DNA of 62,141 bases from Omnitrophica bacterium GWA2_41_15 (GTDB lineage: Bacteria; Omnitrophota; Gorgyraeia; Gygaellales; Profunditerraquicolaceae), in the NCBI GenBank assembly GCA_919902445.1, contig CAKKQZ010000060.1:1-62141 (forward strand). The letters are read 5' to 3'. Shown in pieces: positions 31,829 to 57,710 of this stretch. The position numbers were made by a program, and so were the translations under genes. Under the pieces are notes generated by a model that saw nothing but the letters and a program-made list of their open reading frames with translations, was not told the DNA's origin and ran no database searches. Every line of letters begins with the position of its first letter. Positions within the stretch are counted from its first letter, which is position 1.

Positions 31829-31838
31829 AGGATAAATT

Positions 31839-32876: not shown

Positions 32877-32877
32877 A

Positions 32878-33444: not shown

Positions 33445-33447
33445 TCC

Positions 33448-34077: not shown

Positions 34078-34080
34078 ATA

Positions 34081-34674: not shown

Positions 34675-34720
34675 CTAATATTTGATACGAGAACTGAGAA
34701 TCTAGCATCAAGGATATAGA

Positions 34721-36732: not shown

Positions 36733-36741
36733 AAGGTCGTT

Positions 36742-37725: not shown

Positions 37726-38939
37726 TTAGTGTTGATGATGCCTTAAGAAAAGTGCTTAAGGCAATAAAAGTTATCGGTAAAGAAACAATAGCGCTTAGGG
37801 ATTCTTTGGGCAGGGTCTTAGCAGAAGATATTTATTCTGATTCTGATATCCCCGGGTTTGACAACTCTGCCATGGATGGATACGCGCTAAATTTTACGGA
37901 TACAACCAAGGCATCTGTTGAAGACCCTAAGATATTAGAAGTAATAGAAGATGTTAAGGCAGGGGATATCCCCAAGAAGAAATTAAATAAACTTCAGGCA
38001 ATAAGGATTATGACCGGGGCAATACTTCCTAAAGACGCTGACGCGGTAGTAATGGTGGAGGTAACGAAGAAGGTAAAAATTAAGGGAAAAGAATTTGTAG
38101 AAATATACAAGTGCGCCAAGCGCAATGAGAATGTAAGAAGAGCAGGGGAAGATATAAAAAAGGGCGAGTTAGTTTTACGTAATGGCACCCTCTTAAATAG
38201 CGCGCATATAGGGGTATTGGCAAGCGTGGGAAAATCTAAAGTGCGCGTGGCAAGAAAGCCAATGGTAGCTATTTTAGCCACGGGAAATGAAGTAATTGAT
38301 GTTAATGAAAGGTTGACTCCCGGTAAGATCCGCAGTTCCAATTCTTATACTTTATACAGCCAGGTTATTAGCGCCGGAGGTATTGCGAAAAATTTAGGCA
38401 TTGCAAAGGATACTCCCTCGCAGCTAATAAACAAGATTAAGCAATCGCTTGGCTGCGATTTGCTCATTACATCAGGCGGCGTATCCGTGGGTGATTATGA
38501 CCTGGTCAAAGATATATTATCAAAGTTAGGTACAAATATAGAGTTCTGGAAGGTAGCTATGCGCCCGGGTAAACCTATGGTCTTCGGGCTCATCAGGGGC
38601 ATTCCCGTATTCGGCCTTCCCGGAAATCCCGTATCCAGTATGGTGGCATTTGAGGTTTTTGTAAGGCCTGCAATCGCAAAAATGCTAAATCAGAGTGCGC
38701 CTTCCCGTAAAGAAGCTGAAGCAATACTGCAAGAAGATATCAGCAAGAAAAAGGGTTTAAGGTATTTTTTAAGAGGCAACACTACCTGGAGGAATAGTTC
38801 CTATCAGGCCCGCACCACTGGCCCGCAGGGCTCAGGTATCTTAAAGTCTATGGCGCAAGCCAATAGTCTAATCATCCTTCCTGAAGAAAAAGAGGTTATA
38901 AAAAAAGGATCGAAGGTAAAGGTAAGGTTACTGGATTAA
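37722..38939 (+). CDS. moeA: molybdopterin molybdenumtransferase
   Basis: SAMDGYA, RIMTGA, ATGNE, TSGGVSVGDYD, and PGKP..FG..PGNPVS. Confidence 0.9.
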   Translation: MISVDDALRKVLKAIKVIGKETIALRDSLGRVLAEDIYSDSDIPGFDNSAMDGYALNFTDTTKASVEDPKILEVIEDVKAGDIPKKKLNKLQAIRIMTGAILPKDADAVVMVEVTKKVKIKGKEFVEIYKCAKRNENVRRAGEDIKKGELVLRNGTLLNSAHIGVLASVGKSKVRVARKPMVAILATGNEVIDVNERLTPGKIRSSNSYTLYSQVISAGGIAKNLGIAKDTPSQLINKIKQSLGCDLLITSGGVSVGDYDLVKDILSKLGTNIEFWKVAMRPGKPMVFGLIRGIPVFGLPGNPVSSMVAFEVFVRPAIAKMLNQSAPSRKEAEAILQEDISKKKGLRYFLRGNTTWRNSSYQARTTGPQGSGILKSMAQANSLIILPEEKEVIKKGSKVKVRLLD

Positions 38940-38942
38940 AAA

Positions 38943-40121
38943 ATGATTTCCTGGACAAAATTATTATCCTCCCCGAATGATTTAAAGAGGGGTTTTGAGA
39001 ATAACGGCCAGGATATAAAACCGGTAATAGTCTGGAATATAACTTCGTCCTGCAACCTCTCATGCTGTCATTGTTACCTTGAGTCATCAAAGATTCCTGC
39101 AGCCGAGATTCTCGATACGCAAAAATGCAAGAAAATCATCCTTGATTTAGCGGGATTTGGCGTTCCTGCGCTTCTTTTTTCCGGAGGAGAGCCGCTTTTA
39201 CGCAAAGACATATTTGAACTGGCAGAATTTTCCCGCCGATACGGTATAAGGCCGGTGCTTTCCAGCAACGGAACTTTAATTACCGAATCTAAGGCAAGGA
39301 AGATAAAAACTTCAGGCATAGAATATGCCGGTATAAGTATTGACGGTAAACCGGATACTCATGATAAATTGCGCGGCGAGAAAGGTTCATTTAAGAAGGC
39401 CGCCCTTGGGATAAGGAATTGTAAAGATGCGGGGGTAAAAGTTGGCGTGCGCTTTACTTTAATGAAGGATAATTCAAAAGATTTAGATTTTATTTTTAAT
39501 TTTGCGAGAAAAGAAAAGGTCAATCGCCTCTGCATTTACCATTTGGTTTATTCCGGGAGAGGAAGGCGGGAGAAAGAACTTTCCTTGGAAGAGAAAAGGG
39601 ACTGCCTTGAATTAATCTGGAATTACTCGGATACTTTCCATAGAGAGGATGAGCAAACCGAGATTCTTACAGTGGATAACCACTGCGACGGGGTATGGAT
39701 TTACCATAAAATGCTAAAATTCGATGAAGAGAGGGCAAACAAAATATTGAATTCTCTTTTGAAAAGCGGGGGAAACCAATCAGGGGTTTGTATCGGCTGC
39801 ATTGATTACCGGGGAGATGTTTATATAGATCAGTTTACGCGCGGGCATTCTTTAGGTAATGTAACCAAGAGGAAATTCGGTGAAATATGGGAGGATGAAA
39901 GCAATCTTTTGCTTTACGGATTAAGGCACCGCAAGGATTTTATCAAAGGAAGGTGCAAAGGATGCAGTTTTTTTTCTATCTGTAACGGCAATATGCGCGC
40001 CAGGGCGCAAGCAGTATACGGAGATTTCTGGGAAGAAGACCCCGGCTGTTACTTAAGCAACGAGGAGATAAATGTTGACGGATATCCGGCTGATATTCTG
40101 GGAAACTACAAGGGCTTGTAA
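38943..40121 (+). CDS. radical SAM/SPASM protein, AhbC/AhbD/NirJ family
   Basis: CNLSCCHCY radical SAM cluster, GGEPLL, and a C-terminal Cys-rich SPASM-like region CKGCSFFSICNGNMRA. Confidence 0.7.
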   Translation: MISWTKLLSSPNDLKRGFENNGQDIKPVIVWNITSSCNLSCCHCYLESSKIPAAEILDTQKCKKIILDLAGFGVPALLFSGGEPLLRKDIFELAEFSRRYGIRPVLSSNGTLITESKARKIKTSGIEYAGISIDGKPDTHDKLRGEKGSFKKAALGIRNCKDAGVKVGVRFTLMKDNSKDLDFIFNFARKEKVNRLCIYHLVYSGRGRREKELSLEEKRDCLELIWNYSDTFHREDEQTEILTVDNHCDGVWIYHKMLKFDEERANKILNSLLKSGGNQSGVCIGCIDYRGDVYIDQFTRGHSLGNVTKRKFGEIWEDESNLLLYGLRHRKDFIKGRCKGCSFFSICNGNMRARAQAVYGDFWEEDPGCYLSNEEINVDGYPADILGNYKGL

Positions 40122-41112
40122 CCTCGGATGCCCTCATTGTAGGGCTAGCGCAACCACTGAACCTTCACCCGAAGATTTAACCACGGATGAAGTAAAGAAA
40201 TTTATGGAACAGGCGGCTACATTTAGCAGGCCGATTTTAGTATTTTCCGGAGGAGAGCCGATATTGCGTAATGATCTGTATGAACTGCTTAGTTACGCAA
40301 ACAAGTTGGGATTAAAGCCGGCGCTGGCAACCAACGCCACTTTGATTTCCGAAGAAATTGCCTATAAATTAAAAGATAATGGCCTTAGCCTTGCTTCTGT
40401 TTCGATTTATGGCGCAAATGCAGAATCTCACGATTCATTTTGCGGGTTAAACGGCGCCTTTGAGAAGACATTAAAAGGAATAAATAATCTAAAAAAGGCA
40501 AAAGTCAATGTGCAGATAAATACTACTATAAGCAAAAAAAATTTAAAAGAATTGGAGGTAATAGGAGATTTTGCTTTAAAAATCGGCGCAGTAGCGTACC
40601 ATACCTTCTTTTTAGTTCCCACAGGCAGAGGAAGATATATCGAGGATGATGAAATATCCTCTCAAGAATATGAGAAGGCATTCAATCGCTTATATGATTA
40701 TCAGAAAGTTTTTCCTCTACGCATAAAAGCAACTTGCGCTCCCCATTATTACCGGATTTTACATATGAAAGAAGCAAAAACTAACGAAAGGTCAGACAAT
40801 GAGAAAAGTCGAGGCAAAGGATGCCTTGCCGGTCAGGGTGTTTGCTTTATCTCTCATAAGGGTGAGGTATTTGGTTGTGGATATTTACCTATTATAGCCG
40901 GTAACATTAGAAAACAAGATTTTAGGGATATTTGGTTTAAAAGTGAACTTTTTATAACCTTAAGAGATAATTCAAGATTACAGGGTAAATGCGGAGTTTG
41001 TGAATTTAAGGATGTCTGTGGTGGTTGTAGGGCGCGTGCCTATGCAGCCACAGGAAATTATTTAGAGGAGGATACAAAATGCGCCTATCAGCCCTTGACA
41101 AAAAGATTTTAA
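40072..41112 (+). CDS. radical SAM/SPASM protein, AhbC/AhbD/NirJ family (second copy)
   Basis: CNLGCPHC, GGEPIL, and C-terminal CGVCEFKDVCGGCRARA. Confidence 0.7.
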   Translation: MLTDIRLIFWETTRACNLGCPHCRASATTEPSPEDLTTDEVKKFMEQAATFSRPILVFSGGEPILRNDLYELLSYANKLGLKPALATNATLISEEIAYKLKDNGLSLASVSIYGANAESHDSFCGLNGAFEKTLKGINNLKKAKVNVQINTTISKKNLKELEVIGDFALKIGAVAYHTFFLVPTGRGRYIEDDEISSQEYEKAFNRLYDYQKVFPLRIKATCAPHYYRILHMKEAKTNERSDNEKSRGKGCLAGQGVCFISHKGEVFGCGYLPIIAGNIRKQDFRDIWFKSELFITLRDNSRLQGKCGVCEFKDVCGGCRARAYAATGNYLEEDTKCAYQPLTKRF

Positions 41113-41528
41113 ATAAAATTCAAGAAGATATTCCGTTAGTTCCTGAGCCATTTAAGGCATTGGCTAAAGATACAGGCGTTACTGAAGAGGATTTATTTAA
41201 GAGAATAGAAGAATTAAAAAACAAAGGAATCATCAGAGGCCATGCTGTAGGCATAAATCATAAAATTTTAGGTTTTAAGAGTACGCTTTTGGGCTTAAGA
41301 GTGTTGCAAGATAAGGTTGAAAGCTTAGGTAAAGAACTTGCGGCATATCCGGAAATTACCCATTGTTTCCAGCGTAAAGGTGAATTTAATCTCTGGGCTG
41401 TATTCATTTATAAGGATGGGAGATTAAAAGAGTTCCTGGATAAACTTGGCCAAAAAATTGGCAAAGAAAATATCTTGAATCTCAAGACATTAAGAAAGTT
41501 TAAGCTAAAGACAAGATTGAAGATTTAA
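41079..41528 (+). CDS. AsnC/Lrp-fold siroheme decarboxylase subunit (AhbA/AhbB/NirDLGH family)
   Basis: LDKKILNKIQEDIPLVPEPFKALAKDTGVTEEDLFKRIEELKNKGIIRG is the typical N-terminus of this family. Confidence 0.7.
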   Translation: MRLSALDKKILNKIQEDIPLVPEPFKALAKDTGVTEEDLFKRIEELKNKGIIRGHAVGINHKILGFKSTLLGLRVLQDKVESLGKELAAYPEITHCFQRKGEFNLWAVFIYKDGRLKEFLDKLGQKIGKENILNLKTLRKFKLKTRLKI

Positions 41529-41541
41529 ATGAAAATTTTTC

Positions 41542-41570
41542 TTGACAAACAGGATTAAGTTATTTATCAT
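41542..41570 (+). promoter_or_regulatory. sigma70-type promoter (TTGACA-17 nt-TATCAT)
   Basis: The TTG taken as the ORF start in the track is the -35 hexamer. The -10 is at 41565-41570. Confidence 0.55.
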
Positions 41571-41622
41571 AGGTTTATTCAGTTGTTTATTCAGTAACAG
41601 GTGTGCCATGAGGGAGGTTAGG

Positions 41623-42963
41623 ATGGGAAGAAAAAATCTGGTATTGTTAGGTATAAGTTTTTTTATGAGTTTATTTTTTATTAATTCTGCTTTTGCTATA
41701 CCTACCTTTGCCCGTAAGTATCGCACCAGTTGTAATACCTGCCATATAGCCATACCCAAACTAACTGCTTTTGGTGAATCTTATCGTTTGAATGGTTATC
41801 AGATTCCCGAAGGAGATGCAGCCTATGTAAAAGAAGAGCCGGTAAGTTTAGGTGCGCCTGCCTGGAAAAGGGTCTGGCCCGAGGCAGTTTGGCCGGGTAT
41901 GATTCCAGGGCCGGTGCCACTTTCCGTAAGAATCATTTCTGATTTTAAAGTTAATCAGGCAAGTGAAGCCGCAAGTACAGACTTTAATTTTCCCCATGAA
42001 ATAGAGTTGATGATGGCTGGCCTTTTAGATGAAAATCTGCCATTTTTTGCCGAAATTGAATTTGAAAAAGAGACTAGTTCAAGTTCAGTAGAAACTGATG
42101 TTGAGGCCTGGCTTGGTTTCTATAATCTATTTAGTAATGCATTACCGGAAAGGGCTCTTAATCTGAAAGTGGGAACGCTGGGGATTAATCCTTTACCTAT
42201 GGCTAATGACCACCTAAGAATCGGAAAGAACCACTATTTATATAATGACTGGAGATTAAGTAGCGCTTCTTCTGGAGCCAATGGTTTTCGTTTGAGAGAT
42301 CATCGAGGAGGTTTAGAACTGAATGGAATTTTGGCTGACCGCTTCTGGTACGGTGGCGGTGTAGTTAATGGAGTAAATTCTACGGATAAAGACGGTTATA
42401 TTATTACAAGATATAAATTCGGCGGGACACCTTTTAGCAAGTCAGCTCCTGGCGGAGGAACTGAAGAGGCCATAAAAGGGAAGGCAAGTGGTTTCTGGGT
42501 GGATAATGCCTTGGAGTTAGCCAGCTTTGGCTATTTTGGTTCCACGGAGATTGGTGCAGCAGCTACTGCTAACCAGGAAGACGATAAATTCTGGCGCGCG
42601 GGATTTGCTTTGCGCAATACCTACCAAAATTTTGATCTTAATGCCGGCTATATCTGGGGCAACAATGATGATCCTTATGGTAGTAGTAGCGCTCAGAACA
42701 TAAATTCACAAAGTTGGTTTGTGGAGACAAACTATGTATTTAAACCCTGGCTTATCGGAGAATTAAGATACGAAGCACTTGACGTAGATATGCCCACAGA
42801 TTTCACAGTTACCAATTTAGATAGGGCAAGGTGGGTTCCTGGTTTAATCTTTCAGATCAGGCCCAATATTAAGCTGGTGGCAGAGGCTTTAATCTACAGT
42901 AAGTATAAAGTAGCCAGTGATAGACAGAATAACTTTGTAGCGCGTTTGGATGCCAACTTTTAG
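41623..42963 (+). CDS. fused monoheme cytochrome c / outer-membrane beta-barrel, Cyc2-like candidate
   Basis: ATG 41623 after GGGAGG. Signal peptide ending SAFA, then PTFARKYRTSCNTCH (single CXXCH). About 400 aa rich in Gly and aromatic residues, ending in ...FVARLDANF (OMP-type C-terminal Phe). Confidence 0.6.
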   Translation: MGRKNLVLLGISFFMSLFFINSAFAIPTFARKYRTSCNTCHIAIPKLTAFGESYRLNGYQIPEGDAAYVKEEPVSLGAPAWKRVWPEAVWPGMIPGPVPLSVRIISDFKVNQASEAASTDFNFPHEIELMMAGLLDENLPFFAEIEFEKETSSSSVETDVEAWLGFYNLFSNALPERALNLKVGTLGINPLPMANDHLRIGKNHYLYNDWRLSSASSGANGFRLRDHRGGLELNGILADRFWYGGGVVNGVNSTDKDGYIITRYKFGGTPFSKSAPGGGTEEAIKGKASGFWVDNALELASFGYFGSTEIGAAATANQEDDKFWRAGFALRNTYQNFDLNAGYIWGNNDDPYGSSSAQNINSQSWFVETNYVFKPWLIGELRYEALDVDMPTDFTVTNLDRARWVPGLIFQIRPNIKLVAEALIYSKYKVASDRQNNFVARLDANF

Positions 42964-43004: not shown

Positions 43005-43044
43005 AACCCTTCCCCCCTTTTTATGAGGGGAAGGGTTATTTTTT
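43005..43044 (+). terminator. rho-independent terminator
   Basis: 11-bp stem AACCCTTCCCC / GGGGAAGGGTT followed by ATTTTTT. Confidence 0.65.
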
Positions 43045-43058
43045 AAGGAGGTAAGCAA

Positions 43059-43640
43059 ATGGGAAGAGTCATTTCTATTTTTTTGTTTTTGGTTATTTTC
43101 TGTTCAGAACCCTCTTTTGCAGGAGTAATTAAAGGCAAAGTTTCAACAGCGAAGTTAAAGGCACCCAAAGACATTGTAGTATATATAGACAAAATAGAAG
43201 GAAAAGAGCTTTCTTCATCTGGAGAGCCTGCAAAGATGGACCAGATTAAGCTGGTGTTTATCCCTTATGTTCTTCCTATAATCAAAGGCACAACTGTTGA
43301 GTTTCATAATAGTGATGATGTAAAGCATAATGTCTTTGCTGTAGGTACAGAAAATTTTGATTTAGGTACCTGGACCAAGGGGATCACCAAGTCATATACC
43401 TTTAATAAATTAGGAGATACAGCCATTCTTTGTAATGTGCATCCTGAAATGGAGGCATATGTTTTTGTGCTCCAGAATCCCTATTTTGCTATTACTGATG
43501 AAAATGGACAATACCAGATAAAAGATGTTCCCAGTGGTAGCTATAAATTAAAGGCCTGGCATAATCGGTTAAAGCCGGTTACAAAAGATGTGGATGTAGC
43601 TGCATCAGGAGAACTAAGTGTAGATTTTGAGCTCAAATAG
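43059..43640 (+). CDS. secreted type-1-like cupredoxin fused to a carboxypeptidase-regulatory-like (CarboxypepD_reg) domain
   Basis: Signal peptide. Candidate Cu ligands FHNSDDVKHNV ... CNVHPEM. Then ITDENGQYQIKDVPSGSYKLKAWH. Confidence 0.7.
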   Translation: MGRVISIFLFLVIFCSEPSFAGVIKGKVSTAKLKAPKDIVVYIDKIEGKELSSSGEPAKMDQIKLVFIPYVLPIIKGTTVEFHNSDDVKHNVFAVGTENFDLGTWTKGITKSYTFNKLGDTAILCNVHPEMEAYVFVLQNPYFAITDENGQYQIKDVPSGSYKLKAWHNRLKPVTKDVDVAASGELSVDFELK

Positions 43641-44150
43641 ATGAAAATAAAAAACAATATTCTTATCTTAGGTTTTTTATTTTGTGGTCTGGGTATTTTA
43701 GCAGGCCTTTTGCTGGCGAAGGCTAAGGTTTCTCTTCCTGTGCATAGACAGATTAGTATTGTATCTTATAAATATGGATATGAGCCAGCTGTGATACGGG
43801 TAAATCAAGGAGATACGATTACTTTGAAGTTAAAATCTAAAGACGTAACCCATGGTTTTTATCTTGAGGGGTATGATTTTGATGCCAAGGTAAGAGGGGA
43901 GATGCCGAGTTTCTGGATCAGGCATCCTTCGAAAAGCGAAGAATACGATAAAAACCCGATAGAAACCTATACCTTTGTGGCAAATAAGCCGGGTAAGTTT
44001 CGTTACCGTTGTTCTATAACTTGCGGCTCATTTCACCCATTTATGCAGGGAGAAATGATTGTTGTGCCCAATTACCTCTTCCCTGTTTCTACCGGGTTAG
44101 CTTTAGGTATGGTCTTTACCTGCCTGATTTATTTTAAGCGAAAAAGATGA
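43641..44150 (+). CDS. membrane-anchored cupredoxin with CuA-type motif (type A)
   Basis: N- and C-terminal TM helices. DVTHGF plus CSITCGSFHPFM (C-x3-C-x3-H-x2-M). Paralogue of 57711-58187. Confidence 0.65.
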   Translation: MKIKNNILILGFLFCGLGILAGLLLAKAKVSLPVHRQISIVSYKYGYEPAVIRVNQGDTITLKLKSKDVTHGFYLEGYDFDAKVRGEMPSFWIRHPSKSEEYDKNPIETYTFVANKPGKFRYRCSITCGSFHPFMQGEMIVVPNYLFPVSTGLALGMVFTCLIYFKRKR

Positions 44151-46978
44151 TTGATTTATTTGAAAAATTGCCCTTTTTATTAAAAGTCTGTAAAAGCCGA
44201 TGGCTGCAGTTTATCATTGTCTTTCCTACCTTATTAATATTTATTGTTTTTCTTTATGCCGGCATTTTTGGAACTCCGGTAGGAAACAAAAATATTATCA
44301 TTGTGTTTGTTTGGATTTTCTGGTGGATTTTGCTTATCGGTTTTATGGTGCCATTTGCATCACGTATATGGTGCTTGGTATGTCCTTTCCCGATTATTGG
44401 CGAATGGCTTCAACGTATGGCATTTATTAAGGTAAGGACTAGCGATACCCTATCAGGCTTAAAAAGTAAATACTTCGGAAAAAATAAACCTTGGCCAAAG
44501 AAACACAGGCACATCTGGTTTCAAAGCCTGGGTTTTCTATCCTTGGCGGTATTCAGCCCATTTTTAGTTACGCGCCCCTTTGTAAGTTTCATTGTCTTGG
44601 GTGGGTTATTTGCGGCGGCAACAGCATTAAGTTTAATCTATAAACAAAGGGTATTTTGTATGTATCTTTGCCCGGTAAGTGGATTCTTAGGGCTTTATTC
44701 TATGACCTCAAAACTTGGGCTTCGGGCAAAAGATGTAGAGTTGTGCAACCGCATTAAGAAAGATGAAGAGTTTAATTTTGATTATGGCATTGCAGCTTGT
44801 AGATTAAGCTGTCCCACAGGCATGGATGCCTCAAGTTATATTGCACTTATAGGCAGAGGCAGATACAAAGAAGCCCTGGAGGTAATAAAAGAAGCATCCC
44901 CCTTTGCTGGCGTTTTAGGCAGGGTGTGCACTCACCCCTGCGAGACTGAATGTGTTCGCAAAGAACTGGATGAGCCCATTTCTATTTGCCGCCTGAAGAG
45001 GTTTGTGGGAGATTATATAGGCTACAATGAGATGCAGCCAGCACAGGAGTTTAAACCGCGTTATAAAGAAAAAATAGCTATTATAGGCGCTGGACCTGCA
45101 GGTTTATCCTGCGCCTATCATTTAGTCAGGAATGGATACCAGACTACTGTTTATGAGGCACTTCCTGTTGCCGGCGGGATGATAAGAGTGGGCATTCCTT
45201 CATATAGACTGCCCAAAGACATTGTTGATAGAGAGATAGAGTATATAAAAAATAGTGGCGCGGATATTCGGACCAATATAGAGATTGGTCGGGATTTAGA
45301 TTTTGAGGAATTAAGAAAGGAGAACCAAGCAATATTTATTGCTGTTGGCGCTTCAGAGTCAAGGAGGCTGAAGATAGAAGGAGAGGATTTAAAAGGTGTT
45401 TACAATGCAATAGATATTTTACAGAAAGTAAGTTTGGGAGAGAAATTAGATTTGGGTAAAAGGGTTATAGTTATTGGCGGAGGTGATACAGCAATAGATA
45501 CAGCCCGGGCAATGCTCAGGCTGGGTTGCAATGAAGTCAGGATAGCATATCGGCGCACTAGAGACGAAATGCCTGCTATACCTGAAGAGGTAGTTGCTGC
45601 AGAAAAGGAAGGTATAAAAATAGATTTTCTTACTGCGCCGGTAAAGATTGAAGGAAGCAATGGCAGGGCAACATCCCTTCTCTGCACAAAGATGAGGTTA
45701 GGTCAACCTGATGAATCTGGAAGGCCACAACCTGTGCAAATCAAGGGTTCTGAGTATCTGATTTCAACTGACAGTATAATTGTAGCTACCGGACAATATT
45801 CAGATATAAACTTTTTACCCAAGGAATTAAGCATAAGTACTGCTGGCACCATAATCGTGGATACTCAAGACATGGTTACTAATATCCCTGGTATTTTTGC
45901 TGGTGGAGATGTGGTGAGCGGGCCTGATATTCTCGTTAAGGCCTTAGGTATGGGTAGGAGGGCTTCTATCGCCATTGACAGGTACCTGCGAGGTGAAGAA
46001 TTAAGCCGTATTTCTTTTTATCCTTCAGAGAAGAGGGTTGAGGAGGTACCCATAGGAATAATTGACAGAGAAGATAGGGTTAAATCACGCTTTCGACCAA
46101 TTGAGGAACGCATTAAAGATTTTAAAGAAGTAGAAGAGGTGTTTACAGAAAATATGGCAGTTCGGGAAGCCAAGAGATGCTTGAGTTGCGGAATATGCGG
46201 GGCGTGTTACCGTGGTTCAGATAAAGGATGGGCCTGCGCTTGGTTTGAAAAGATGGGGGGAATGGATAGAAATAATTATTGTGGCTTATGTATGGAGTGC
46301 GTAAAAAGCTGCCCCTATGATAATATCGGGCTCTATTGGCGGCCATTTGCTTGGGATAAAGATATCAAGGGTTATGATGAATCCTGGAAGTCCTTTATTA
46401 TGCTAGTCTTAGCGATTATTTATTCTATCAATTTGTTAAGCCCTTGGGGCAAGCTTAAGAATTTTCTTAACTTTACTGAAACAGGCACAGTAGGTCATTT
46501 TATCTTACTTAGTGTGAATATGCTTTTATGGTGCCTGGCACTATTTCCATCTATTCATTATCTCTTCTGCAAATTTTCCCAGTTGTTATCTAGGTCTAAA
46601 GAGGTGGAGACAAAAGAATTATTCTTAAAGTATTCCTATGCTTATGTTCCTTTGGGTCTTATGGCCTGGGTGTGTTTTAGCGTGCCGCTACTATTGATTA
46701 ATGGCAGTTATATCCTGGCAGTGATTTCCGACCCCTTTGGTTGGGGCTGGAACCTTTTTGGCACAGCGCATCTTCATTGGAGCCCTATATTACCGCACTG
46801 GGTTCCTTACATACAGGCACTTTTTATATTAGCAGGACTTTTCTACTCTGTAGTATCTGTATTTAAAATAGCCAAGAGGATATTTTCTCAAAAAGAAGAG
46901 GCTTTAAAAAGTATTATTCCCATAGTTGCGCTGCTTTTAATAATAACTATAATCTTTTTTAGGTTATATTTGGGTTAG
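44147..46978 (+). CDS. NapH-like polytopic Fe-S membrane protein with an inserted GltD-like NAD(P)H flavoprotein module
   Basis: WCLVCPFP and FCMYLCPVSG in the TM region. Insert carries CPTGMD...CTHPCETEC, IAIIGAGPAGL and VIGGGDTAID. It rejoins at CGLCMECVKSCPYDN, and the C-terminal TM part ISDPFGWGWNLFGTAH is shared with ORF 58180. Confidence 0.75.
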   Translation: MIDLFEKLPFLLKVCKSRWLQFIIVFPTLLIFIVFLYAGIFGTPVGNKNIIIVFVWIFWWILLIGFMVPFASRIWCLVCPFPIIGEWLQRMAFIKVRTSDTLSGLKSKYFGKNKPWPKKHRHIWFQSLGFLSLAVFSPFLVTRPFVSFIVLGGLFAAATALSLIYKQRVFCMYLCPVSGFLGLYSMTSKLGLRAKDVELCNRIKKDEEFNFDYGIAACRLSCPTGMDASSYIALIGRGRYKEALEVIKEASPFAGVLGRVCTHPCETECVRKELDEPISICRLKRFVGDYIGYNEMQPAQEFKPRYKEKIAIIGAGPAGLSCAYHLVRNGYQTTVYEALPVAGGMIRVGIPSYRLPKDIVDREIEYIKNSGADIRTNIEIGRDLDFEELRKENQAIFIAVGASESRRLKIEGEDLKGVYNAIDILQKVSLGEKLDLGKRVIVIGGGDTAIDTARAMLRLGCNEVRIAYRRTRDEMPAIPEEVVAAEKEGIKIDFLTAPVKIEGSNGRATSLLCTKMRLGQPDESGRPQPVQIKGSEYLISTDSIIVATGQYSDINFLPKELSISTAGTIIVDTQDMVTNIPGIFAGGDVVSGPDILVKALGMGRRASIAIDRYLRGEELSRISFYPSEKRVEEVPIGIIDREDRVKSRFRPIEERIKDFKEVEEVFTENMAVREAKRCLSCGICGACYRGSDKGWACAWFEKMGGMDRNNYCGLCMECVKSCPYDNIGLYWRPFAWDKDIKGYDESWKSFIMLVLAIIYSINLLSPWGKLKNFLNFTETGTVGHFILLSVNMLLWCLALFPSIHYLFCKFSQLLSRSKEVETKELFLKYSYAYVPLGLMAWVCFSVPLLLINGSYILAVISDPFGWGWNLFGTAHLHWSPILPHWVPYIQALFILAGLFYSVVSVFKIAKRIFSQKEEALKSIIPIVALLLIITIIFFRLYLG

Positions 46979-46983
46979 GGGTA

Positions 46984-47457
46984 ATGAAAAAAGAAAATAT
47001 AATAGAGATTTTTCTTTTAGTTTTAGTGGTGGCGTCGGTCATTTTACTCCCCCTTGTTATTATAAAAATTGATAAATACTATCTGGCCAGAAAATTTCCT
47101 AAAAATGCACAGGTGATAACCCTTTACGGCATAGCCAAGGGAGGCCTCTGGACCCAGGAACCGGTTAACAGCTTTAATTACTGGTGGAAGAGGTTTAAAC
47201 GTGCAGAAGAAATTCCCATCCGTGATGACGGCACTCCTATTTTTTTCCGCATAACCAGCACAGACGTGGTACACAGTTTTGCTATTCCTCTTTATCGTAT
47301 AGGTCCTTATGATATAAAGCCAGGAGAATTTACAGAGGTTGAACTTAAAACAGATAAAGAATTAGTAGATACGGGCTTTCTCTGTTGGCAATATTGCGAT
47401 AAAGACCACGAACATATGAAAGGCAGATTAGTTATCTTACCTAAAAATGAGGAGTGA
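46984..47457 (+). CDS. N-terminally anchored cupredoxin with CuA-type motif (type B)
   Basis: TM helix. DVVHSF plus CWQYCDKDHEHM (C-x3-C-x3-H-x2-M). Paralogue of 59609-59998. Confidence 0.6.
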   Translation: MKKENIIEIFLLVLVVASVILLPLVIIKIDKYYLARKFPKNAQVITLYGIAKGGLWTQEPVNSFNYWWKRFKRAEEIPIRDDGTPIFFRITSTDVVHSFAIPLYRIGPYDIKPGEFTEVELKTDKELVDTGFLCWQYCDKDHEHMKGRLVILPKNEE

Positions 47458-48110
47458 AAATTTTTAAAAAATTTATTTTTGTTAGCTTTTTAGCAATATT
47501 TTTTTCACTTATTATAGCCAGCCTCTTTCCTGAAGAAGCTAGCCATAAGTATTTCTATCAGGCACCTTGGTTTAAGTTCCTCTGGTTTATTGTTTCTATT
47601 GGTATAATTATTGTTTTTGTTAATTCTGTCCAAAGAAGAGATTTTGGATTTTCTATAATTTACCTGGGCCTTCTTCTTGTTTTACTGGCGGGCCTTTTGG
47701 CATCCTTATTCAAAGAAGAAGGGTTTATGGAGATGAAAAAAGGCCAGACTCAAGATGACTTCTGGATTAATGATGAGTCTTCAAAATCCTTAGGCTTTTC
47801 CCTATCTTTAAAGGATTTTTCAGTGGAATTTTATCCTAAAGAAGTAAAAGGGATGCGTTTTATTAAAGCTTATAAGACTTCCGTAGGAATTAGCAGAAAT
47901 GGGAAATTGCTTAAAGAGGCTACTATCGAAGTAAACAAGCCTTTAACCTTTGAGGGGTTTTGGTTTTATCAGTATGGTTATGAACCTAAGCTTCCTGAGC
48001 AAACTGTCCTGCAAGTAGTTAAAGATCCCGGACTTCCTTTAGCCTATAGTGGATATTTAATTTTGATGTTAGGTCTAGTGTTCTCATTCAGACGCCTATG
48101 GAAAATTTAG
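47454..48110 (+). CDS. ccsB: short ResB/CcsB-like cytochrome c biogenesis protein
   Basis: TM helices flank LSLKDFSVEFYP...EVNKPLTFEGFWFYQYGY...VVKDPGLP, a ResB-like periplasmic pattern. Much shorter than typical ResB. Confidence 0.6.
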   Translation: MKIFKKFIFVSFLAIFFSLIIASLFPEEASHKYFYQAPWFKFLWFIVSIGIIIVFVNSVQRRDFGFSIIYLGLLLVLLAGLLASLFKEEGFMEMKKGQTQDDFWINDESSKSLGFSLSLKDFSVEFYPKEVKGMRFIKAYKTSVGISRNGKLLKEATIEVNKPLTFEGFWFYQYGYEPKLPEQTVLQVVKDPGLPLAYSGYLILMLGLVFSFRRLWKI

Positions 48111-48862
48111 TTTTAATTTTATATTTACTTTCTTTACTTTTCTATTTTTTATCTTATTTTTTTAAACATAAGTTTTTTTCTCGCTTAGGCTTAATATTTT
48201 TAAGCACAGGACTCCTGTGTAGCTTCTATTTAGCAAGCACACATTTTTATACTACTCAACGCTTACCCTTAACTAACACATCTGAGACTCTTTTTTCACT
48301 GGTTACTCTTGTGGTTCTAGTGTATCTGGCATTAGAATGGAAGTTAGGATTGCCCAGAATATTGGGCTTGAGTGTTAGCTTGATTTCTCTTTCAGGTCTA
48401 TATTTAGCCTTTTACTTTTTCAAAAAGCCTTTGTTGCCTTTACTGCCTGCCCTGCAGAGCAGATGGCTGGTTTTTCATGTTTCAAGTTGTATTGTTGCTT
48501 ATGGTTTTTTTACCCTTGCATTTATCTGCGCAATAATTTACCTTGCCAGGAGCAATCCCGCGCTCATTATTTTCTCTATTATGCACCGTTCTATCTCTGT
48601 GGGGTTTTTATTTCTAACGCTGGGAATAATCTTGGGTTCAATCTGGGGTAAGTCTGCGTGGGGGCACTGGTGGAATTGGGATCCCAAGGAGACCTGGGCG
48701 TTAATTACCTGGTTTATTTATGCTGGCTATATGCATGCCAAATTATTTGGTAATTGGCCTAAAAGGAAACTTGCCCAAATAGCCGTCTTAGGATTTTTGT
48801 CTTGTCTTTTTACTTACCTAGGTGTAAATTATATTTTAAGAGGTTTACATAGCTATGCGTAA
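48098..48862 (+). CDS. ccsA: cytochrome c assembly protein CcsA (system II)
   Basis: Trp-rich WAWGHWWNWDPKETWALITW motif and polytopic profile. Confidence 0.85.
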   Translation: MENLVLILYLLSLLFYFLSYFFKHKFFSRLGLIFLSTGLLCSFYLASTHFYTTQRLPLTNTSETLFSLVTLVVLVYLALEWKLGLPRILGLSVSLISLSGLYLAFYFFKKPLLPLLPALQSRWLVFHVSSCIVAYGFFTLAFICAIIYLARSNPALIIFSIMHRSISVGFLFLTLGIILGSIWGKSAWGHWWNWDPKETWALITWFIYAGYMHAKLFGNWPKRKLAQIAVLGFLSCLFTYLGVNYILRGLHSYA

Positions 48863-49652
48863 AAATAAAATTAAAAATCAAAAAACTCTGCCAGAGAACG
48901 CGGTATATTCACCAATAATTATGGTGGAAAAAATAAAAATTATATTTGGCCTTTTACATTTTGTATCTGTCTTGTTGTTGCCTAGCATTGGATTTTGTGA
49001 CGTCTTGCGTTTGAGAGAAGTCCCAAAAGACAAAGAGGGAAATGAAGTTGAAATCTTGGAGGAAAAAGCAGACGCCTTTATTATTAAGGTTCCCAAGGAC
49101 GAGATTGAAGTAATCCTGAGAAAGCGCCCCACAGAGGCGAAGCTTTGGCATGAAAAACGAATTCTCTGGGAAGAAACCGGCGACTACATAACTATTTATT
49201 TACCAAAAGAAAAGATTATACTTCCTGAGGACTATAAAGGCGATGAATATGATGCCGCCAAAGGCTTAAAAAAAGAACTAACCTCAACAGGAGCTGAAGG
49301 AAGGCCTCCGGAGGCTACTTTTTGGAAAGGCACAAGCAAGATAACTGGTAGAATTTTAAATGGAGGAAACCCTTTATCTGGAGTTAAGATTAGAATTGTC
49401 AATGTTCCTTCTCAGGTGAGCGCGCTCTCCCAGATTCTTGGACCAAAGGTAGAAAGTCAGAAGGAATTGGTCTTTGATGCTACGACAAATGAATTAGGCT
49501 GGTATGAGTTAACTAATATCCCTATGGGAGAATATGATATCTTTTGGTCACTTCCCGGCAGTGAAAGTTGGTATCGCAAGCTAAGTGAAAAACCCAACAT
49601 CACCGTAAGACCGGGTGAGACAGTAAATTATCCAGATATAGAAACAAAATAG
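48855..49652 (+). CDS. secreted hypothetical protein with a CarboxypepD_reg-like C-terminal domain
   Basis: Hydrophobic N-terminus. ITGRILNGGNPLSGVKIRIVN and GWYELTNIPMGEYDIFW. Start codon is uncertain. Confidence 0.4.
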   Translation: MRKNKIKNQKTLPENAVYSPIIMVEKIKIIFGLLHFVSVLLLPSIGFCDVLRLREVPKDKEGNEVEILEEKADAFIIKVPKDEIEVILRKRPTEAKLWHEKRILWEETGDYITIYLPKEKIILPEDYKGDEYDAAKGLKKELTSTGAEGRPPEATFWKGTSKITGRILNGGNPLSGVKIRIVNVPSQVSALSQILGPKVESQKELVFDATTNELGWYELTNIPMGEYDIFWSLPGSESWYRKLSEKPNITVRPGETVNYPDIETK

Positions 49653-49657
49653 CGAAA

Positions 49658-57633: not shown

Positions 57634-57690
57634 GGACACCCTTTCTGCTAAAGCTAAGCCGCTCTTTCTGCCAATCTTAAGGGTGTCCCC
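57632..57690. repeat. 59-nt TIR element (copy B)
   Basis: AGGGACACCCTT ... AAGGGTGTCCC terminal inverted repeats (11 bp). The interior matches copy A at 30151-30209 in reverse orientation. Confidence 0.7.
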
Positions 57691-57710
57691 AATAAGGTAA
57701 GGAATAAGAA

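What the first reader, a model, noticed from the sequence alone, without database searches (positions are those of the whole stretch)
41623..42963. Candidate Cyc2-like fused monoheme cytochrome-porin on its own promoter and terminator
- The mature protein would start IPTFARKYRTSCNTCHIAIPKLTAFGESYRLNGY. A single CXXCH lies about 15 residues after the signal-peptide cleavage site.
- About 400 residues of Gly/aromatic-rich sequence follow, ending in the OMP-type signature ...FVARLDANF.
- A short N-terminal heme domain fused to a beta-barrel of this size is the architecture of Cyc2, the outer-membrane iron oxidase of acidophilic and neutrophilic iron oxidisers.
- The FAR..(4-5 aa)C..CH....P.L..FG context matches my recollection of the conserved Cyc2 N-terminus.
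- It is the only secreted ORF with a CXXCH that I found in the window.
- It is followed by cupredoxins and ccsBA. In Acidithiobacillus, cyc2 is likewise linked to the blue-copper protein rusticyanin and a CuA-containing oxidase.
Basis: partly seen in the sequence, partly recalled or inferred. Interest (0 to 1): 0.7.

Follow-up and report, generated by a model that had tools for sequence, protein, structure and literature searches.

The report
Cyc2-type cytochrome-porin with copper partner
This gene from a groundwater Omnitrophota bacterium encodes an outer-membrane pore fused to a single haem, a true but distant relative of the Cyc2 iron oxidase; it is almost always paired with a blue-copper protein, so it is a credible but untested entry point for electrons from dissolved iron.

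Summary
Window 41623-42963 (+) encodes a 446-aa secreted protein with one CXXCH, the only one in the 62 kb window.

It meets every published sequence criterion for Cyc2:
- AIPTFARKY motif with canonical spacing to CXXCH
- PKL after the haem site
- length above 365 aa
- C-terminal Phe

AlphaFold2 (pLDDT 86) gives a 16-strand barrel that matches 16-strand porins, including OprP.

Pfam and NCBIfam find nothing and NCBI calls it hypothetical. An HMM built from 94 Cyc2 proteins taken from Gallionella, Sideroxydans and other genomes hits it full-length (E 1.6e-20). Profile-profile probability is 99.8%, and 97.3% for the barrel alone.

It belongs to a large, separate clade (595 representatives at E<=1e-30, about 19% identity to canonical Cyc2) with a clade-specific conserved insert.

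The gene is followed by a type-1 copper protein in 75% of 55 metagenomic loci. Beyond that lie either a Rieske/cytochrome b complex or, as here, CuA proteins and a NapH-like membrane protein.

Fe(II) oxidation is the most likely function, but it is inferred and not shown; electron export is the main rival. I rate it a new member of a known kind, of moderate interest.

The parts
41542..41570 (+). Sigma-70-like promoter, TTGACA-17 nt-TATCAT
   Evidence: 11 of 12 consensus matches, 53 nt before the ATG. This is a consensus match only. In other lineages a sensor kinase and sigma-54 activator lie upstream instead (24 of 41 loci).
41611..41618 (+). Ribosome-binding site GAGGGAGG
   Evidence: Read directly from the sequence. 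It lies 5 nt before ATG 41623, which supports this start over the in-frame ATG at 41608 and the TTG at 41542.
41623..42963 (+). cyc2-like gene: 446-aa fused monohaem cytochrome c and 16-strand outer-membrane porin
   Evidence: It is identical to NCBI 'hypothetical protein AABY28_05445 [Candidatus Omnitrophota bacterium]'.
41623..41697 (+). Sec signal peptide (residues 1-25, cleavage after AFA)
   Evidence: By inspection: n-region MGRK, a hydrophobic core and A-F-A at -3/-1. AF2 predicts a helix at residues 3-18 and low confidence at 20-26. No SignalP run was possible.
41698..41805 (+). Cytochrome region (residues 26-61): A-I-P-T-F-A-R-K-Y-R-T-S-CNTCH-I-A-I-P-K-L-T-A-F-G...N-G-Y. CXXCH is at nt 41731-41745.
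   Evidence: It matches the Cyc2 consensus in PMC8406198. Columns A25, P27, F29, A30, R31, C37, C40, H41, P45, L47, F50, G51, G58 and Y59 are conserved in both the 88 family members and the 94 canonical Cyc2.
41806..41919 (+). Clade-specific conserved segment (residues 62-99: PEGDAAYVKEEPVSLGAPAWKRVWPEAVWPGMIPGPVP)
   Evidence: K70, G77, K82, P86, W90, P91, P95 and P99 are invariant or at least 90% conserved in the family. About 19 columns of this segment are gapped against canonical Cyc2 in hhalign. Its function is unknown.
41923..42957 (+). 16-strand beta-barrel (residues 101-445) ending in Phe
   Evidence: DSSP on the AF2 model lists 16 strands between residues 101 and 445. Foldseek matches 16-strand porins. 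The barrel-only hhalign against Cyc2 barrels gives 97.3%, E=2e-11. The C-terminal residue is aromatic in 82 of 88 family members.
43005..43046 (+). Intrinsic-terminator-like hairpin plus T-run between cyc2-like and the copper-protein gene
   Evidence: The intergenic fold has an energy of -33 kcal/mol. Comparable GC-rich hairpins follow the gene in several related loci, which suggests attenuation or transcript stabilisation rather than full uncoupling.
43059..43640 (+). Conserved partner: secreted type-1 (blue) copper domain fused to a CarboxypepD_reg beta-sandwich, 193 aa
   Evidence: H90, C125, H128 and M131 (CNVHPEM) are invariant in 11 of 11 orthologues. Pfam hits are, and weak PDB matches to amicyanin and a NirK cupredoxin domain are. 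It is present within 3 kb downstream of the cyc2-like gene in 41 of 55 metagenomic loci, and within about 3 kb in all 8 related loci looked up individually (L124-L131).
43641..44150 (+). Membrane-anchored CuA-type cupredoxin, 169 aa (DVTHGF ... CSITCGSFHPFM)
   Evidence: The best solved relative is the Thermus ba3 oxidase CuA domain. An orthologue occupies the same position in Acidobacteriota locus L124.
44147..46978 (+). 943-aa polytopic NapH-like Fe-S membrane protein with a GltD-like NAD(P)H Fe-S flavoprotein module inserted at about residues 216-672
   Evidence: Fer4_20, Pyr_redox_2, PRK12771. The two halves are 49-51% identical to the uninterrupted 472-aa orthologue in L124, and 38-39% identical to window 58180-59604.
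46984..47457 (+). Second membrane-anchored CuA-type cupredoxin, 157 aa (DVVHSF ... CWQYCDKDHEHM)
47454..48862 (+). ccsB (ResB-like, short) and ccsA: system II cytochrome c maturation
   Evidence: These are needed to attach haem to the window's only c-type cytochrome. The same pair follows the cyc2-like gene in L126 and in some metagenomic loci.
48855..49652 (+). 265-aa accessory protein of unknown function with a CarboxypepD_reg C-terminus
   Evidence: Its N-terminal half resembles the 233-aa proteins that directly follow the cyc2-like gene in L126 and L127 (sequence comparison by eye).
38943..41528 (+). Alternative haem biosynthesis genes ahbC-like, ahbD-like and ahbA/B-like, directly upstream
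   Evidence: TIGR04546/TIGR04054, TIGR04545, NF040708/NF040707; all below the equivalog cut-offs.

Best explanation
**What it is.** The gene encodes a Sec-exported outer-membrane protein in which a short monohaem c-type cytochrome region is fused to a 16-strand porin barrel. It is a distant but genuine member of the Cyc2 superfamily. It belongs to a large, uncharacterised clade with FARKY in place of FARQT and an extra conserved segment of about 35 residues.

**How it most likely works.** Dissolved Fe(II) reaches the haem at or inside the pore and is oxidised. The electron passes to the periplasmic type-1 copper protein encoded next door. In this organism it then passes to membrane-anchored CuA proteins and a NapH-like Fe-S membrane protein carrying an NAD(P)H-binding module. 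From there it could reach a high-potential acceptor, or be pushed uphill to NAD(P)+. An anammox-type nitrite oxidoreductase/nitrate reductase lies 9 kb downstream and is one candidate acceptor.

**Shown:**
- the architecture
- homology to Cyc2
- invariance of the haem site
- the conserved copper partner
- the conserved respiratory neighbourhood

**Inferred:**
- haem attachment
- outer-membrane location
- Fe(II) as substrate
- direction of electron flow
- every partner contact
For: **Architecture**
- One CXXCH, a signal peptide and a C-terminal Phe.
- AF2 model with pLDDT 86.4, pTM 0.84 and 16 strands.
- Foldseek matches 16-strand porins; OprP has the highest query TM-score listed, 0.53. Keffer et al. 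name the same structural relatives for Cyc2.

**Family membership**
- Literal match to the published Cyc2 signature.
- Same FAR-x5-C spacing as Cyc2 from Gallionella and Sideroxydans genomes.
- The family profile hits 93 of 94 canonical Cyc2 and no decoys.
- The canonical HMM hits the target full-length at E=1.6e-20, hits all 88 relatives, and hits no decoys.
- hhalign gives 99.8%, and 97.3% for the barrel alone.

**Function**
- Members of three Cyc2 clusters have been shown to oxidise Fe(II) (PMC8406198, PMC7029218).
- The next gene is a blue-copper protein with invariant His/Cys/His/Met. It is present downstream in 41 of 55 loci. This parallels Cyc2-rusticyanin in Acidithiobacillus (PMC10654088).
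- Copper centres and Rieske clusters typically have high potentials. The anammox Rieske proteins measure +303 and +335 mV (PMC12954380), and the Cyc2 PV-1 haem measures +208 mV. A chain at these potentials suits electron uptake from Fe(II), and suits delivery to Fe(III) oxides poorly.
- The source is Hainich groundwater well H51. Planktonic Omnitrophota MAGs there carry CO2-fixation pathways.
Against: - No experiment exists on any member of this clade.
- Identity to characterised-type Cyc2 is only about 19-25%.
- Pairwise BLASTP is borderline: best E is 5e-7, and 1.8e-4 to Gallionella.
- Cyc2 homologues are common in organisms not known to oxidise iron (PMC7029218, PMC12442345).
- No terminal oxidase subunit I lies in the window, so the acceptor is unknown.
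- The NAD(P)-linked Rieske/cytochrome b complexes that accompany many clade members have been proposed to send electrons outward to a high-potential acceptor. That would fit export as well.
- No conserved distal haem ligand was identified, so the haem potential cannot be guessed.
- The hairpin after the gene may uncouple it transcriptionally from the copper genes.
Confidence: 0.6

Rival explanations
1. It is the same Cyc2-type cytochrome-porin, but it works as an exit. Electrons from quinol or NAD(P)H pass through the inner-membrane complex and the copper proteins to the haem. From there they reach an extracellular or pore-accessible oxidant such as chelated Fe(III), Mn(III/IV) or oxidised humics. 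It would serve as the high-potential branch of a bifurcating complex.
For: - Many clade members sit in front of a GltD-like subunit, Rieske, cytochrome b and multihaem c set.
- Anammox complexes of that composition have been proposed to split quinol electrons between NAD(P)+ and an unidentified favourable acceptor (PMC12954380).
- FeGenie surveys describe Omnitrophica, Zixibacteria and Ignavibacteriales as having both iron-oxidising and iron-reducing gene sets (PMC8478452).
- In the window the flavoprotein module is fused to the membrane protein, giving a short NAD(P)H-to-periplasm route.
Against: - Every Cyc2-family protein tested so far oxidises Fe(II).
- Keffer et al. argue that a single haem in a narrow 16-strand pore can only react with dissolved species, not solid oxides.
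- Blue-copper, CuA and Rieske centres are usually too oxidising to reduce Fe(III) oxides at neutral pH (established redox chemistry; for the Rieske values).
Confidence: 0.2
2. It takes up electrons from a soluble donor other than Fe(II), for example Mn(II), reduced humic or quinone compounds, or a reduced sulfur or nitrogen species. The Cyc2 fold would be reused for another small substrate.
For: - The clade is separate from all canonical groups, at about 19% identity.
- It has its own conserved segment next to the haem region.
- It replaces the canonical Q-T-G-M before the haem site with K-Y-R-T.
- The literature notes many Cyc2 carriers that are sulfur oxidisers or otherwise not known iron oxidisers.
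Against: - No evidence points to any specific alternative substrate.
- The cytochrome signature around the haem is otherwise conserved with proven iron oxidases.
Confidence: 0.12
3. It has a non-respiratory role: a porin whose haem senses redox state or iron, or that helps iron or haem acquisition. On this view it sits among haem-biosynthesis and cytochrome-maturation genes simply because it needs haem.
For: - In the window it is flanked by ahbC/D/A-B, ccsBA and hemA.
- Its barrel resembles solute-specific porins such as OprP.
Against: - The ahb and hemA linkage is not conserved in other lineages.
- The copper protein and respiratory complexes are conserved.
- Sigma-54 two-component control together with electron-transfer operons points to energy metabolism.
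Confidence: 0.05
4. It is an ordinary porin with a chance CXXCH, or a mis-called ORF.
For: - No Pfam, NCBIfam or PDB sequence hit.
- It is annotated as hypothetical.
Against: - CXXCH is invariant in 88 of 88 relatives, and it sits within a signature of about 35 residues shared with 94 canonical Cyc2.
- The chance expectation is 0.0014 per protein.
- The profile finds 595 representative relatives at E<=1e-30.
Confidence: 0.01

Closest known systems
Cyc2 of neutrophilic iron oxidisers (Cluster 1: Mariprofundus ferrooxydans PV-1 Cyc2, Gallionellaceae and Sideroxydans Cyc2; PMC8406198)
   Same: - Signal peptide, a single N-terminal CXXCH, A-x-P-x-F-A-R-[Q/K]-[T/Y], FAR-x5-C spacing, and F-G...G-Y after the haem site.
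- About 400-450 aa, a 16-strand barrel and a C-terminal aromatic residue.
- Significant full-length HMM and profile-profile matches.
   Different: - About 19-22% identity.
- K-Y-R-T in place of Q-T-G-M before the haem.
- CH-x3-P, where the Gallionellaceae type has CH-x4-P (FQHFP).
- An extra conserved segment at residues 62-99.
- It forms its own cluster.
- A different gene neighbourhood, with a conserved blue-copper partner.
Acidithiobacillus ferrooxidans Cyc2 in the rus operon (cyc2-cyc1-cup-coxBACD-rus; PMC10654088)
   Same: An outer-membrane monohaem cytochrome-porin is genetically linked to a periplasmic blue-copper protein and to CuA-containing proteins. The same logic applies: outer-membrane haem to copper protein to inner-membrane complex.
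   Different: - The copper partner here is an amicyanin-like domain fused to a CarboxypepD_reg domain, not rusticyanin.
- The window has no cyc1-type cytochrome c4 and no oxidase subunit I.
- The CuA proteins are stand-alone, and they flank a NapH-like/GltD-like membrane protein instead of an aa3 oxidase.
- No direct sequence comparison was possible, because the A. ferrooxidans sequence was not on hand.
Leptospirillum Cyt572 and the FeGenie Cyc2 cluster associated with it
   Same: - It is a diverse, deep-branching part of the Cyc2 family.
- FeGenie surveys report this cluster type as dominant at most of the DeMMO subsurface sites. The same paper reports iron-cycling genes in Zixibacteria, Omnitrophica and Ignavibacteriales, the phyla that carry the present clade (names).
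   Different: Not compared directly, so assignment of the target to this cluster is untested.
Phosphate-selective porins OprP/OprO (2O4V, 4RJW) and general 16-strand porins (PorB, OmpF, VhChiP)
   Same: A 16-strand barrel fold. Foldseek probability is 1.0 with TM-scores of 0.45-0.53 on the query.
   Different: - No detectable sequence similarity.
- These porins have no haem domain.
Porin-cytochrome complexes MtrCAB, MtoAB/PioAB and Geobacter PCC
   Same: They also move electrons across the outer membrane.
   Different: They use a 26-strand barrel plus separate multihaem proteins. The target is a single polypeptide with one haem and 16 strands.
Anammox Rieske/cytochrome b complexes with an NAD(P) oxidoreductase subunit (Kustd1480-1485, Kuste4569-4574; PMC12954380)
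   Same: The gene set downstream of many clade members has the same composition: a GltD-like flavoprotein, Rieske, a b6-like cytochrome b, a subunit-IV-like protein and a multihaem c.
   Different: - This is neighbourhood context only, not the target itself.
- The window lacks the Rieske/b set and has CuA proteins and a NapH-like protein instead.
- Orthology to the Kuenenia subunits was not tested.

Membership tests
Cyc2 fused cytochrome-porin (criteria of Keffer et al. 2021, PMC8406198) | N-terminal signal peptide | tested here: met
   By inspection: MGRK, a hydrophobic core, then AFA|I. AF2 predicts a helix at residues 3-18 followed by a low-confidence linker. No dedicated predictor was run.
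Cyc2 fused cytochrome-porin (criteria of Keffer et al. 2021, PMC8406198) | Exactly one CXXCH, near the N-terminus | tested here: met
   CNTCH at residues 37-41 is the only CXXCH in the protein and in the window. There is one per protein in 88 of 88 relatives and 94 of 94 canonical Cyc2.
Cyc2 fused cytochrome-porin (criteria of Keffer et al. 2021, PMC8406198) | A-X-P-X-F-A-R-[Q/K]-[T/Y] upstream of CXXCH, said to be unique to Cyc2 | tested here: met
   A25-I-P-T-F-A-R-K-Y33. The spacing FAR-x5-C is identical to Cyc2 of Gallionella and Sideroxydans genomes.
Cyc2 fused cytochrome-porin (criteria of Keffer et al. 2021, PMC8406198) | P-X-L four residues after CXXCH | tested here: met
   H41-I-A-I-P45-K-L47. 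P45 and L47 are conserved in both groups.
Cyc2 fused cytochrome-porin (criteria of Keffer et al. 2021, PMC8406198) | Length of at least 365 aa | tested here: met
   446 aa. The family median is 430 aa.
Cyc2 fused cytochrome-porin (criteria of Keffer et al. 2021, PMC8406198) | Porin domain: a 16-strand beta-barrel structurally like OprO/OprP | tested here: met
   16 DSSP strands in a model with pLDDT 86. Foldseek matches 16-strand porins, with OprP 2O4V at TMq 0.53.
Cyc2 fused cytochrome-porin (criteria of Keffer et al. 2021, PMC8406198) | Sequence similarity to reference Cyc2 (BLASTP E<=1e-5, or a FeGenie HMM score above cut-off) | tested here: met
   - BLASTP in an nr-sized search space: 2 of 94 references pass 1e-5 (best 5e-7), and Gallionella scores 1.8e-4.
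- Surrogate HMM of 94 Cyc2: 79.5 bits, E=1.6e-20, full length.
- hhalign: 99.8%.
- FeGenie's own HMMs and cut-offs were not available.
Cyc2 fused cytochrome-porin (criteria of Keffer et al. 2021, PMC8406198) | Placement in phylogenetic cluster 1, 2 or 3 | tested here: inconclusive
   The target clusters apart from both the Gallionellaceae-type and the 'TVFPELT'-type canonical groups. The nearest canonical sequence is from an Ignavibacteriales genome. Reference sequences for A. ferrooxidans Cyc2 and Leptospirillum Cyt572 were not on hand.
Cyc2 fused cytochrome-porin (criteria of Keffer et al. 2021, PMC8406198) | Covalently bound haem, outer-membrane location and Fe(II) oxidation activity | not testable with these tools
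   Needs expression, haem staining, fractionation and Fe(II) kinetics as done for Cyc2 PV-1. Only indirect support exists: ccsBA in the operon and a C-terminal Phe.
Pfam Porin_O_P / Porin_4 (phosphate-selective and general porins) | Match to the family HMM above the gathering threshold | tested here: not met
   No Pfam family at E<=0.01. Only one relative, P0066, carries a precomputed Porin_4 hit. The resemblance is at fold level only.
Porin-cytochrome complexes (MtrAB/MtoAB/PioAB type) | A 26-strand barrel enclosing a separate decahaem cytochrome | tested here: not met
   The target has 16 strands, one haem and a single polypeptide. There is no multihaem ORF in the window.
Type-1 (blue) copper proteins, for the partner gene 43059-43640 | His ... 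Cys-Xn-His-Xn-Met ligand set in a cupredoxin fold | tested here: met
   H90, C125, H128 and M131 are invariant in 11 of 11 orthologues. There is a weak Copper-bind Pfam hit and weak amicyanin/NirK PDB hits. No structure was predicted.

The most novel reading that the evidence does not exclude
The Cyc2-like haem and its blue-copper partner feed electrons from groundwater Fe(II) into an almost haem-free, copper-based periplasmic relay of three stand-alone CuA proteins.

That relay would branch two ways:
- to an anammox-type NXR working as a nitrate reductase, giving enzymatic nitrate-dependent iron oxidation in Omnitrophota
- to a NapH-like membrane protein with a built-in GltD-like module that drives reverse electron flow straight to NAD(P)+ for autotrophy

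More broadly, the FARKY clade plus its copper partner would be the missing extracellular donor or acceptor module of the enigmatic NAD(P)-linked Rieske/cytochrome b complexes known from anammox bacteria.
Probability: 0.12. Interest if true: 0.8.

Novelty: new member of a known kind. Interest (0 to 1): 0.45.

Why it matters
Cyc2 is the main marker gene used to infer microbial iron oxidation from metagenomes, yet only a few proteins, all from Proteobacteria and Leptospirillum, have been tested.

This gene belongs to a large clade, with hundreds of 50%-identity clusters across Omnitrophota, Acidobacteriota, Ignavibacteria, Zixibacteria, Desulfobacterota and Scalindua. Standard annotation leaves the clade as 'hypothetical', and pairwise BLAST barely links it to Cyc2.

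Knowing that it is a bona fide Cyc2 relative with a conserved blue-copper partner gives three things:
- a concrete two-protein system to express and assay
- a way to ask whether abundant subsurface phyla take up electrons from iron
- a candidate external redox partner for the NAD(P)-linked Rieske/cytochrome b complexes, whose favourable half-reaction is unknown for at least one of the two Kuenenia complexes

If the clade proves not to oxidise iron, that would be an important caution for marker-gene surveys.

Tried and rejected
**Searches that led nowhere**
- Pfam and NCBIfam scans of the target gave nothing.
- A profile search of PDB sequences gave nothing even at E<=10, so no solved structure of a close sequence relative turned up.
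- A literature search for a printed Cyc2 sequence ('FARQT') returned only OCR noise.
- The Keffer supplement holds identity tables and figure legends, not sequences.
- Two literature queries failed on syntax.

**Analyses that could not be completed**
- FeGenie HMMs and the 1,593-sequence reference alignment are not available here. I built a surrogate reference set from a genome scan for F-A-R-Q-T-G-M-x-C-x-x-C-H. By construction this set samples only FARQTGM-type Cyc2. It excludes other variants, and A. ferrooxidans or Leptospirillum sequences were not identified in it.
- I looked for a conserved distal haem ligand. No Met or His is conserved in both groups; H125 is only 75% conserved in the family. 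No claim is made.
- The AF2 coordinates could not be inspected, so the position of the haem region relative to the pore is unknown.

**Ideas considered and rejected**
- An incidental CXXCH: rejected because the motif is invariant.
- A MtrAB-type conduit: rejected because of the strand count and haem count.
- ahb/ccs/hemA linkage as a guide to function: rejected because it is not conserved outside this lineage.
- The 265-aa CarboxypepD_reg protein (48855-49652) as a second copper partner: rejected because it has no copper motif and no hit to the partner profile.
Full report
**1. The observation.**

The ORF is real and at the stated coordinates. It runs from ATG 41623 to the stop at 42963 on the + strand and encodes 446 aa. 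GAGGGAGG lies 5 nt upstream.

The product begins MGRKNLVLLGISFFMSLFFINSAFA|IPTFARKYRTSCNTCHIAIPKLTAFGESYRLNGY and ends FVARLDANF. The exact protein is on record as 'hypothetical protein AABY28_05445 [Candidatus Omnitrophota bacterium]'. It also occurs on contigs from the Hain_H51 assemblies, in the 0.2 and 0.1 um fractions. H51 is a groundwater well of the Hainich aquifer transect (PMC12930757).

The single CXXCH (residues 37-41) is not a chance motif:
- About 0.0014 are expected per protein of this composition, and about 0.06 in all + strand ORFs.
- It is the only CXXCH in any ORF of 80 aa or more in all six frames of the 62 kb window.
- C37, C40 and H41 are invariant in 88 aligned homologues.

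A TTGACA-17-TATCAT site lies at 41542-41570, and a GC-rich hairpin with a T-run lies at 43005-43046. These are consensus matches only.

**2. Structure.**

Pfam and NCBIfam return nothing for the protein. A family profile finds no PDB sequence.

AlphaFold2 on an 88-sequence alignment gives a confident model (pLDDT 86.4, pTM 0.84). It has a signal-peptide helix, a small helical N-terminal region and exactly 16 long beta-strands between residues 101 and 445.

Foldseek against the PDB returns 16-strand porins at probability 1.0, among them PorB, chitoporin and OmpF. OprP (2O4V) has the highest query TM-score, 0.53. Keffer et al. (PMC8406198) predicted a 16-strand barrel with OprO/OprP as structural relatives for Cyc2.

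**3. Is it Cyc2?**

Keffer et al. define the family by these features:
- a signal peptide
- one CXXCH
- an A-X-P-X-F-A-R-[Q/K]-[T/Y] motif described as unique to Cyc2
- P-X-L after the haem site
- at least 365 residues
- a porin

The target reads A-I-P-T-F-A-R-K-Y, then R-T-S, CNTCH, I-A-I, P-K-L. This is a literal match.

I scanned one genome per GTDB species for DNA encoding F-A-R-Q-T-G-M-x-C-x-x-C-H, a pattern with fewer than 0.1 expected chance matches. The hits include Sideroxydans, Gallionella, Gallionellaceae and Chlorobiota genomes. From these loci, 94 complete proteins of 365 aa or more were extracted. They show the same FAR-x5-C spacing as the target and continue ...CH-T-V-F-P-E-L-T-P-F-G-R-x-F-K-L-N-G-Y, against the target's ...CH-I-A-I-P-K-L-T-A-F-G-E-S-Y-R-L-N-G-Y.

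The tests gave these results:

| Test | Result |
|---|---|
| Target-family profile vs canonical set + window decoys | 93 of 94 canonical at E<1e-3 (Z=1e6); only decoy hit is the target itself |
| Canonical HMM vs target | E=1.6e-20, 79.5 bits, one alignment over HMM 1-421 / target 1-433 |
| Canonical HMM vs family + decoys | all 88 relatives hit, no decoys |
| hhalign, full length | 99.8% probability, E=4e-29, 373 columns |
| hhalign, cytochrome region removed from both | 97.3%, E=2e-11, 280 columns |
| BLASTP, nr-sized search space | best 5e-7 and 1e-6; Gallionella 1.8e-4 |

The barrel-only result shows that the barrels are homologous too. The borderline BLASTP values may explain why the protein is still unannotated.

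**4. Where it sits in the family.**

The target's relatives form their own cluster. Within-cluster identity is 41%. Identity to the canonical proteins is about 19% (maximum 25%). That is the same range Keffer et al. report between Cyc2 clusters.

The nearest canonical sequence comes from an Ignavibacteriales genome. The clade is clearly not the Gallionellaceae/Zetaproteobacteria type, which has CH-x4-P.

I could not assign the clade to cluster 2 or 3 without the Acidithiobacillus and Leptospirillum references. The published consensus already allows K and Y at the two variable positions. FeGenie surveys also report Leptospirillum-associated Cyc2 as the dominant type at most DeMMO subsurface sites. 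The same paper reports iron-cycling genes in Zixibacteria, Omnitrophica and Ignavibacteriales (PMC8478452). The clade is therefore probably already inside published Cyc2 trees.

An exhaustive profile search of 1.84 billion representatives finds 595 proteins at E<=1e-30, 2,153 at E<=1e-10 and 4,615 at E<=1e-3. Named members come from Omnitrophota, Acidobacteriota, Desulfobacterota, Scalindua, Ignavibacteria, Zixibacteria and others.

Two features distinguish the clade:
- K-Y-R-T replaces Q-T-G-M before the haem site.
- There is a conserved segment of about 35 residues (KEEPVSLGAxAWKxVWPxAVWPG, residues 62-99). About 19 columns of it are gapped against canonical Cyc2.

**5. Neighbourhood and likely mechanism.**

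Each downstream protein can be described more precisely:
- **43059-43640.** This is a secreted type-1 copper domain with an amicyanin-like C-x2-H-x2-M loop, fused to a CarboxypepD_reg domain. Its four copper ligands are invariant in 11 orthologues.
- **43641-44150 and 46984-47457.** These are membrane-anchored CuA proteins with the complete C-x3-C-x3-H-x2-M motif.
- **44147-46978.** This lies between the two CuA genes. It is a NapH-like polytopic Fe-S membrane protein into which a GltD-like NAD(P)H flavoprotein module of about 450 residues has been inserted. An Acidobacteriota orthologue and a window paralogue lack the insert.

The copper partner is the conserved feature of the clade. A copy lies within about 3 kb downstream in all 8 related loci looked up individually.

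In an independent set of metagenomic loci:

| Feature | Count |
|---|---|
| Copper partner within 3 kb downstream | 41 of 55 |
| Copper partner directly adjacent | 38 of 55 |
| Rieske/cytochrome b set further downstream, often with a multihaem cytochrome c and sometimes a GltD-like subunit | 11 of 25 |
| CuA plus NapH-like set, as in the window | 4 of 25 |
| Sigma-54 activator upstream | 24 of 41 |

The Rieske/cytochrome b gene set has the same composition as the NAD(P)-linked Rieske/b complexes of anammox bacteria (PMC12954380).

A different cytochrome-porin fusion in locus L125 also sits next to a copy of the copper partner.

The parallel with Acidithiobacillus, where Cyc2 passes electrons to rusticyanin and then to CuA-containing oxidase or an uphill bc1 branch, is therefore real at the level of logic.

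My preferred mechanism is: Fe(II) to haem to type-1 copper to CuA or multihaem carriers to inner-membrane complex.

The direction of flow is inferred from two things. All characterised Cyc2 proteins are iron oxidases. The chain also has a high-potential character. The Cyc2 PV-1 haem measures +208 mV and the anammox Rieske proteins about +300 mV, and copper centres are typically similar. Such a chain suits uptake from Fe(II) better than reduction of Fe(III) oxides.

The main rival is outward flow, as the favourable branch of a bifurcating complex. I cannot exclude it.

**6. Candidate acceptor.**

Nine kilobases downstream, behind an Rrf2 regulator, lies a complete type II DMSO-reductase-family operon. 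Its alpha subunit aligns end to end with the solved Kuenenia nitrite oxidoreductase NxrA (7B04, E=1.6e-270) and has a Tat-like leader. A third CuA protein and a second NapH-like protein follow it.

This makes nitrate a plausible acceptor, with nitrite oxidation as an alternative metabolism. Nothing links the two operons beyond proximity and shared protein types.

No oxidase subunit I is present in the window.

**7. Verdict.**

The interpretation as a Cyc2-like fused monohaem cytochrome-porin is supported by every test I could run. The iron-oxidase function remains an inference, at about even odds taken alone.

The protein is a new, unannotated member of a known family. The conserved blue-copper partner and the link to NAD(P)-coupled membrane complexes are the parts that a specialist might find new and testable.

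Noticed in passing
window 51273-59604: An Rrf2 regulator is followed by a complete anammox/Nitrospira-type periplasmic nitrite oxidoreductase operon. NxrA matches Kuenenia NXR-A (7B04) end to end at E=1.6e-270 and has a TRKQFLK Tat-like leader. NxrB, a NarJ-like chaperone and an EB_dh haem-b gamma subunit follow, then a CuA cupredoxin and a NapH-like membrane protein. Finding NXR in an Omnitrophota genome from groundwater seems noteworthy in its own right.
   Followed up: partly
window 44147-46978: A GltD-like NAD(P)H Fe-S flavoprotein module (about residues 216-672) is inserted into a polytopic NapH-like Fe-S membrane protein. The uninterrupted form exists in Acidobacteriota (L124:11534-12952) and as a paralogue at window 58180-59604. 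This would wire NAD(P)H directly to a membrane Fe-S protein flanked by CuA proteins. I know of no described equivalent.
   Followed up: partly
window 43641-44150, 46984-47457, 57711-58187: Three stand-alone, membrane-anchored CuA-type cupredoxins carry complete C-x3-C-x3-H-x2-M motifs. There is no haem-copper oxidase subunit I anywhere in the window. The respiratory region is copper-rich and has only one c-type cytochrome.
   Followed up: partly
window 41806-41919 (residues 62-99 of the target): A clade-specific, highly conserved Trp/Pro/Lys-rich segment (KEEPVSLGAxAWKxVWPxAVWPG) lies between the haem region and the barrel. It is largely absent from canonical Cyc2. Its role is unknown; it could be part of the haem pocket, a plug, or a partner docking site.
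   Followed up: partly
window 48855-49652; L126:10458-11159; L127:10467-11168: A protein of unknown function with no Pfam match in its N-terminal half (motif ...EVEILxExxDAFIxKxPKxE...KLWxEKxILWE...) recurs next to cyc2-like genes in three lineages. It may be a further accessory component.
   Followed up: no
L129:8001-11048; L125:1935-4381: L129 carries two tandem paralogues of the FARKY-type cytochrome-porin. L125 carries a second, unrelated cytochrome-porin fusion (KCGRCH plus Porin_O_P) beside an Rrf2 gene and another copy of the blue-copper partner. This suggests the copper protein serves several outer-membrane cytochrome-porins.
   Followed up: partly
window 38943-41528 and 47454-50752: The cyc2-like operon is bracketed by alternative haem biosynthesis genes (ahbC-, ahbD- and ahbA/B-like; ahbC and ahbD overlap by 50 nt), system II cytochrome c maturation genes (a short ResB-like ccsB, and ccsA) and hemA. 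This linkage was not seen in other lineages.
   Followed up: partly
window 30329-38939: A six-gene Nqr/Rnf-type complex is followed by a UbiA prenyltransferase, a polyprenyl synthase and MoeA. Together these form a compact respiratory and cofactor island upstream of the haem genes. The six genes are: an NqrA/RnfC-like subunit, NqrB/RnfD, an FMN-binding subunit, two Rnf-Nqr membrane subunits and an NqrF-like 2Fe-2S/FAD/NAD subunit.
   Followed up: no
window 21987-23894: Two adjacent ORFs carry the N-terminal part (150 aa) and the C-terminal part (469 aa, with HAMP and MCP signalling domains) of one dCache_1 chemoreceptor. This is probably a frameshifted or split gene, or an assembly error.
   Followed up: no
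window 19726-21012, 23978-25207, 28689-29279: Two DUF4143/AAA_14 ATPase genes and an IS200-like Y1 transposase are interspersed among chemotaxis and type IV pilus genes. These are possible mobile or selfish elements.
   Followed up: no
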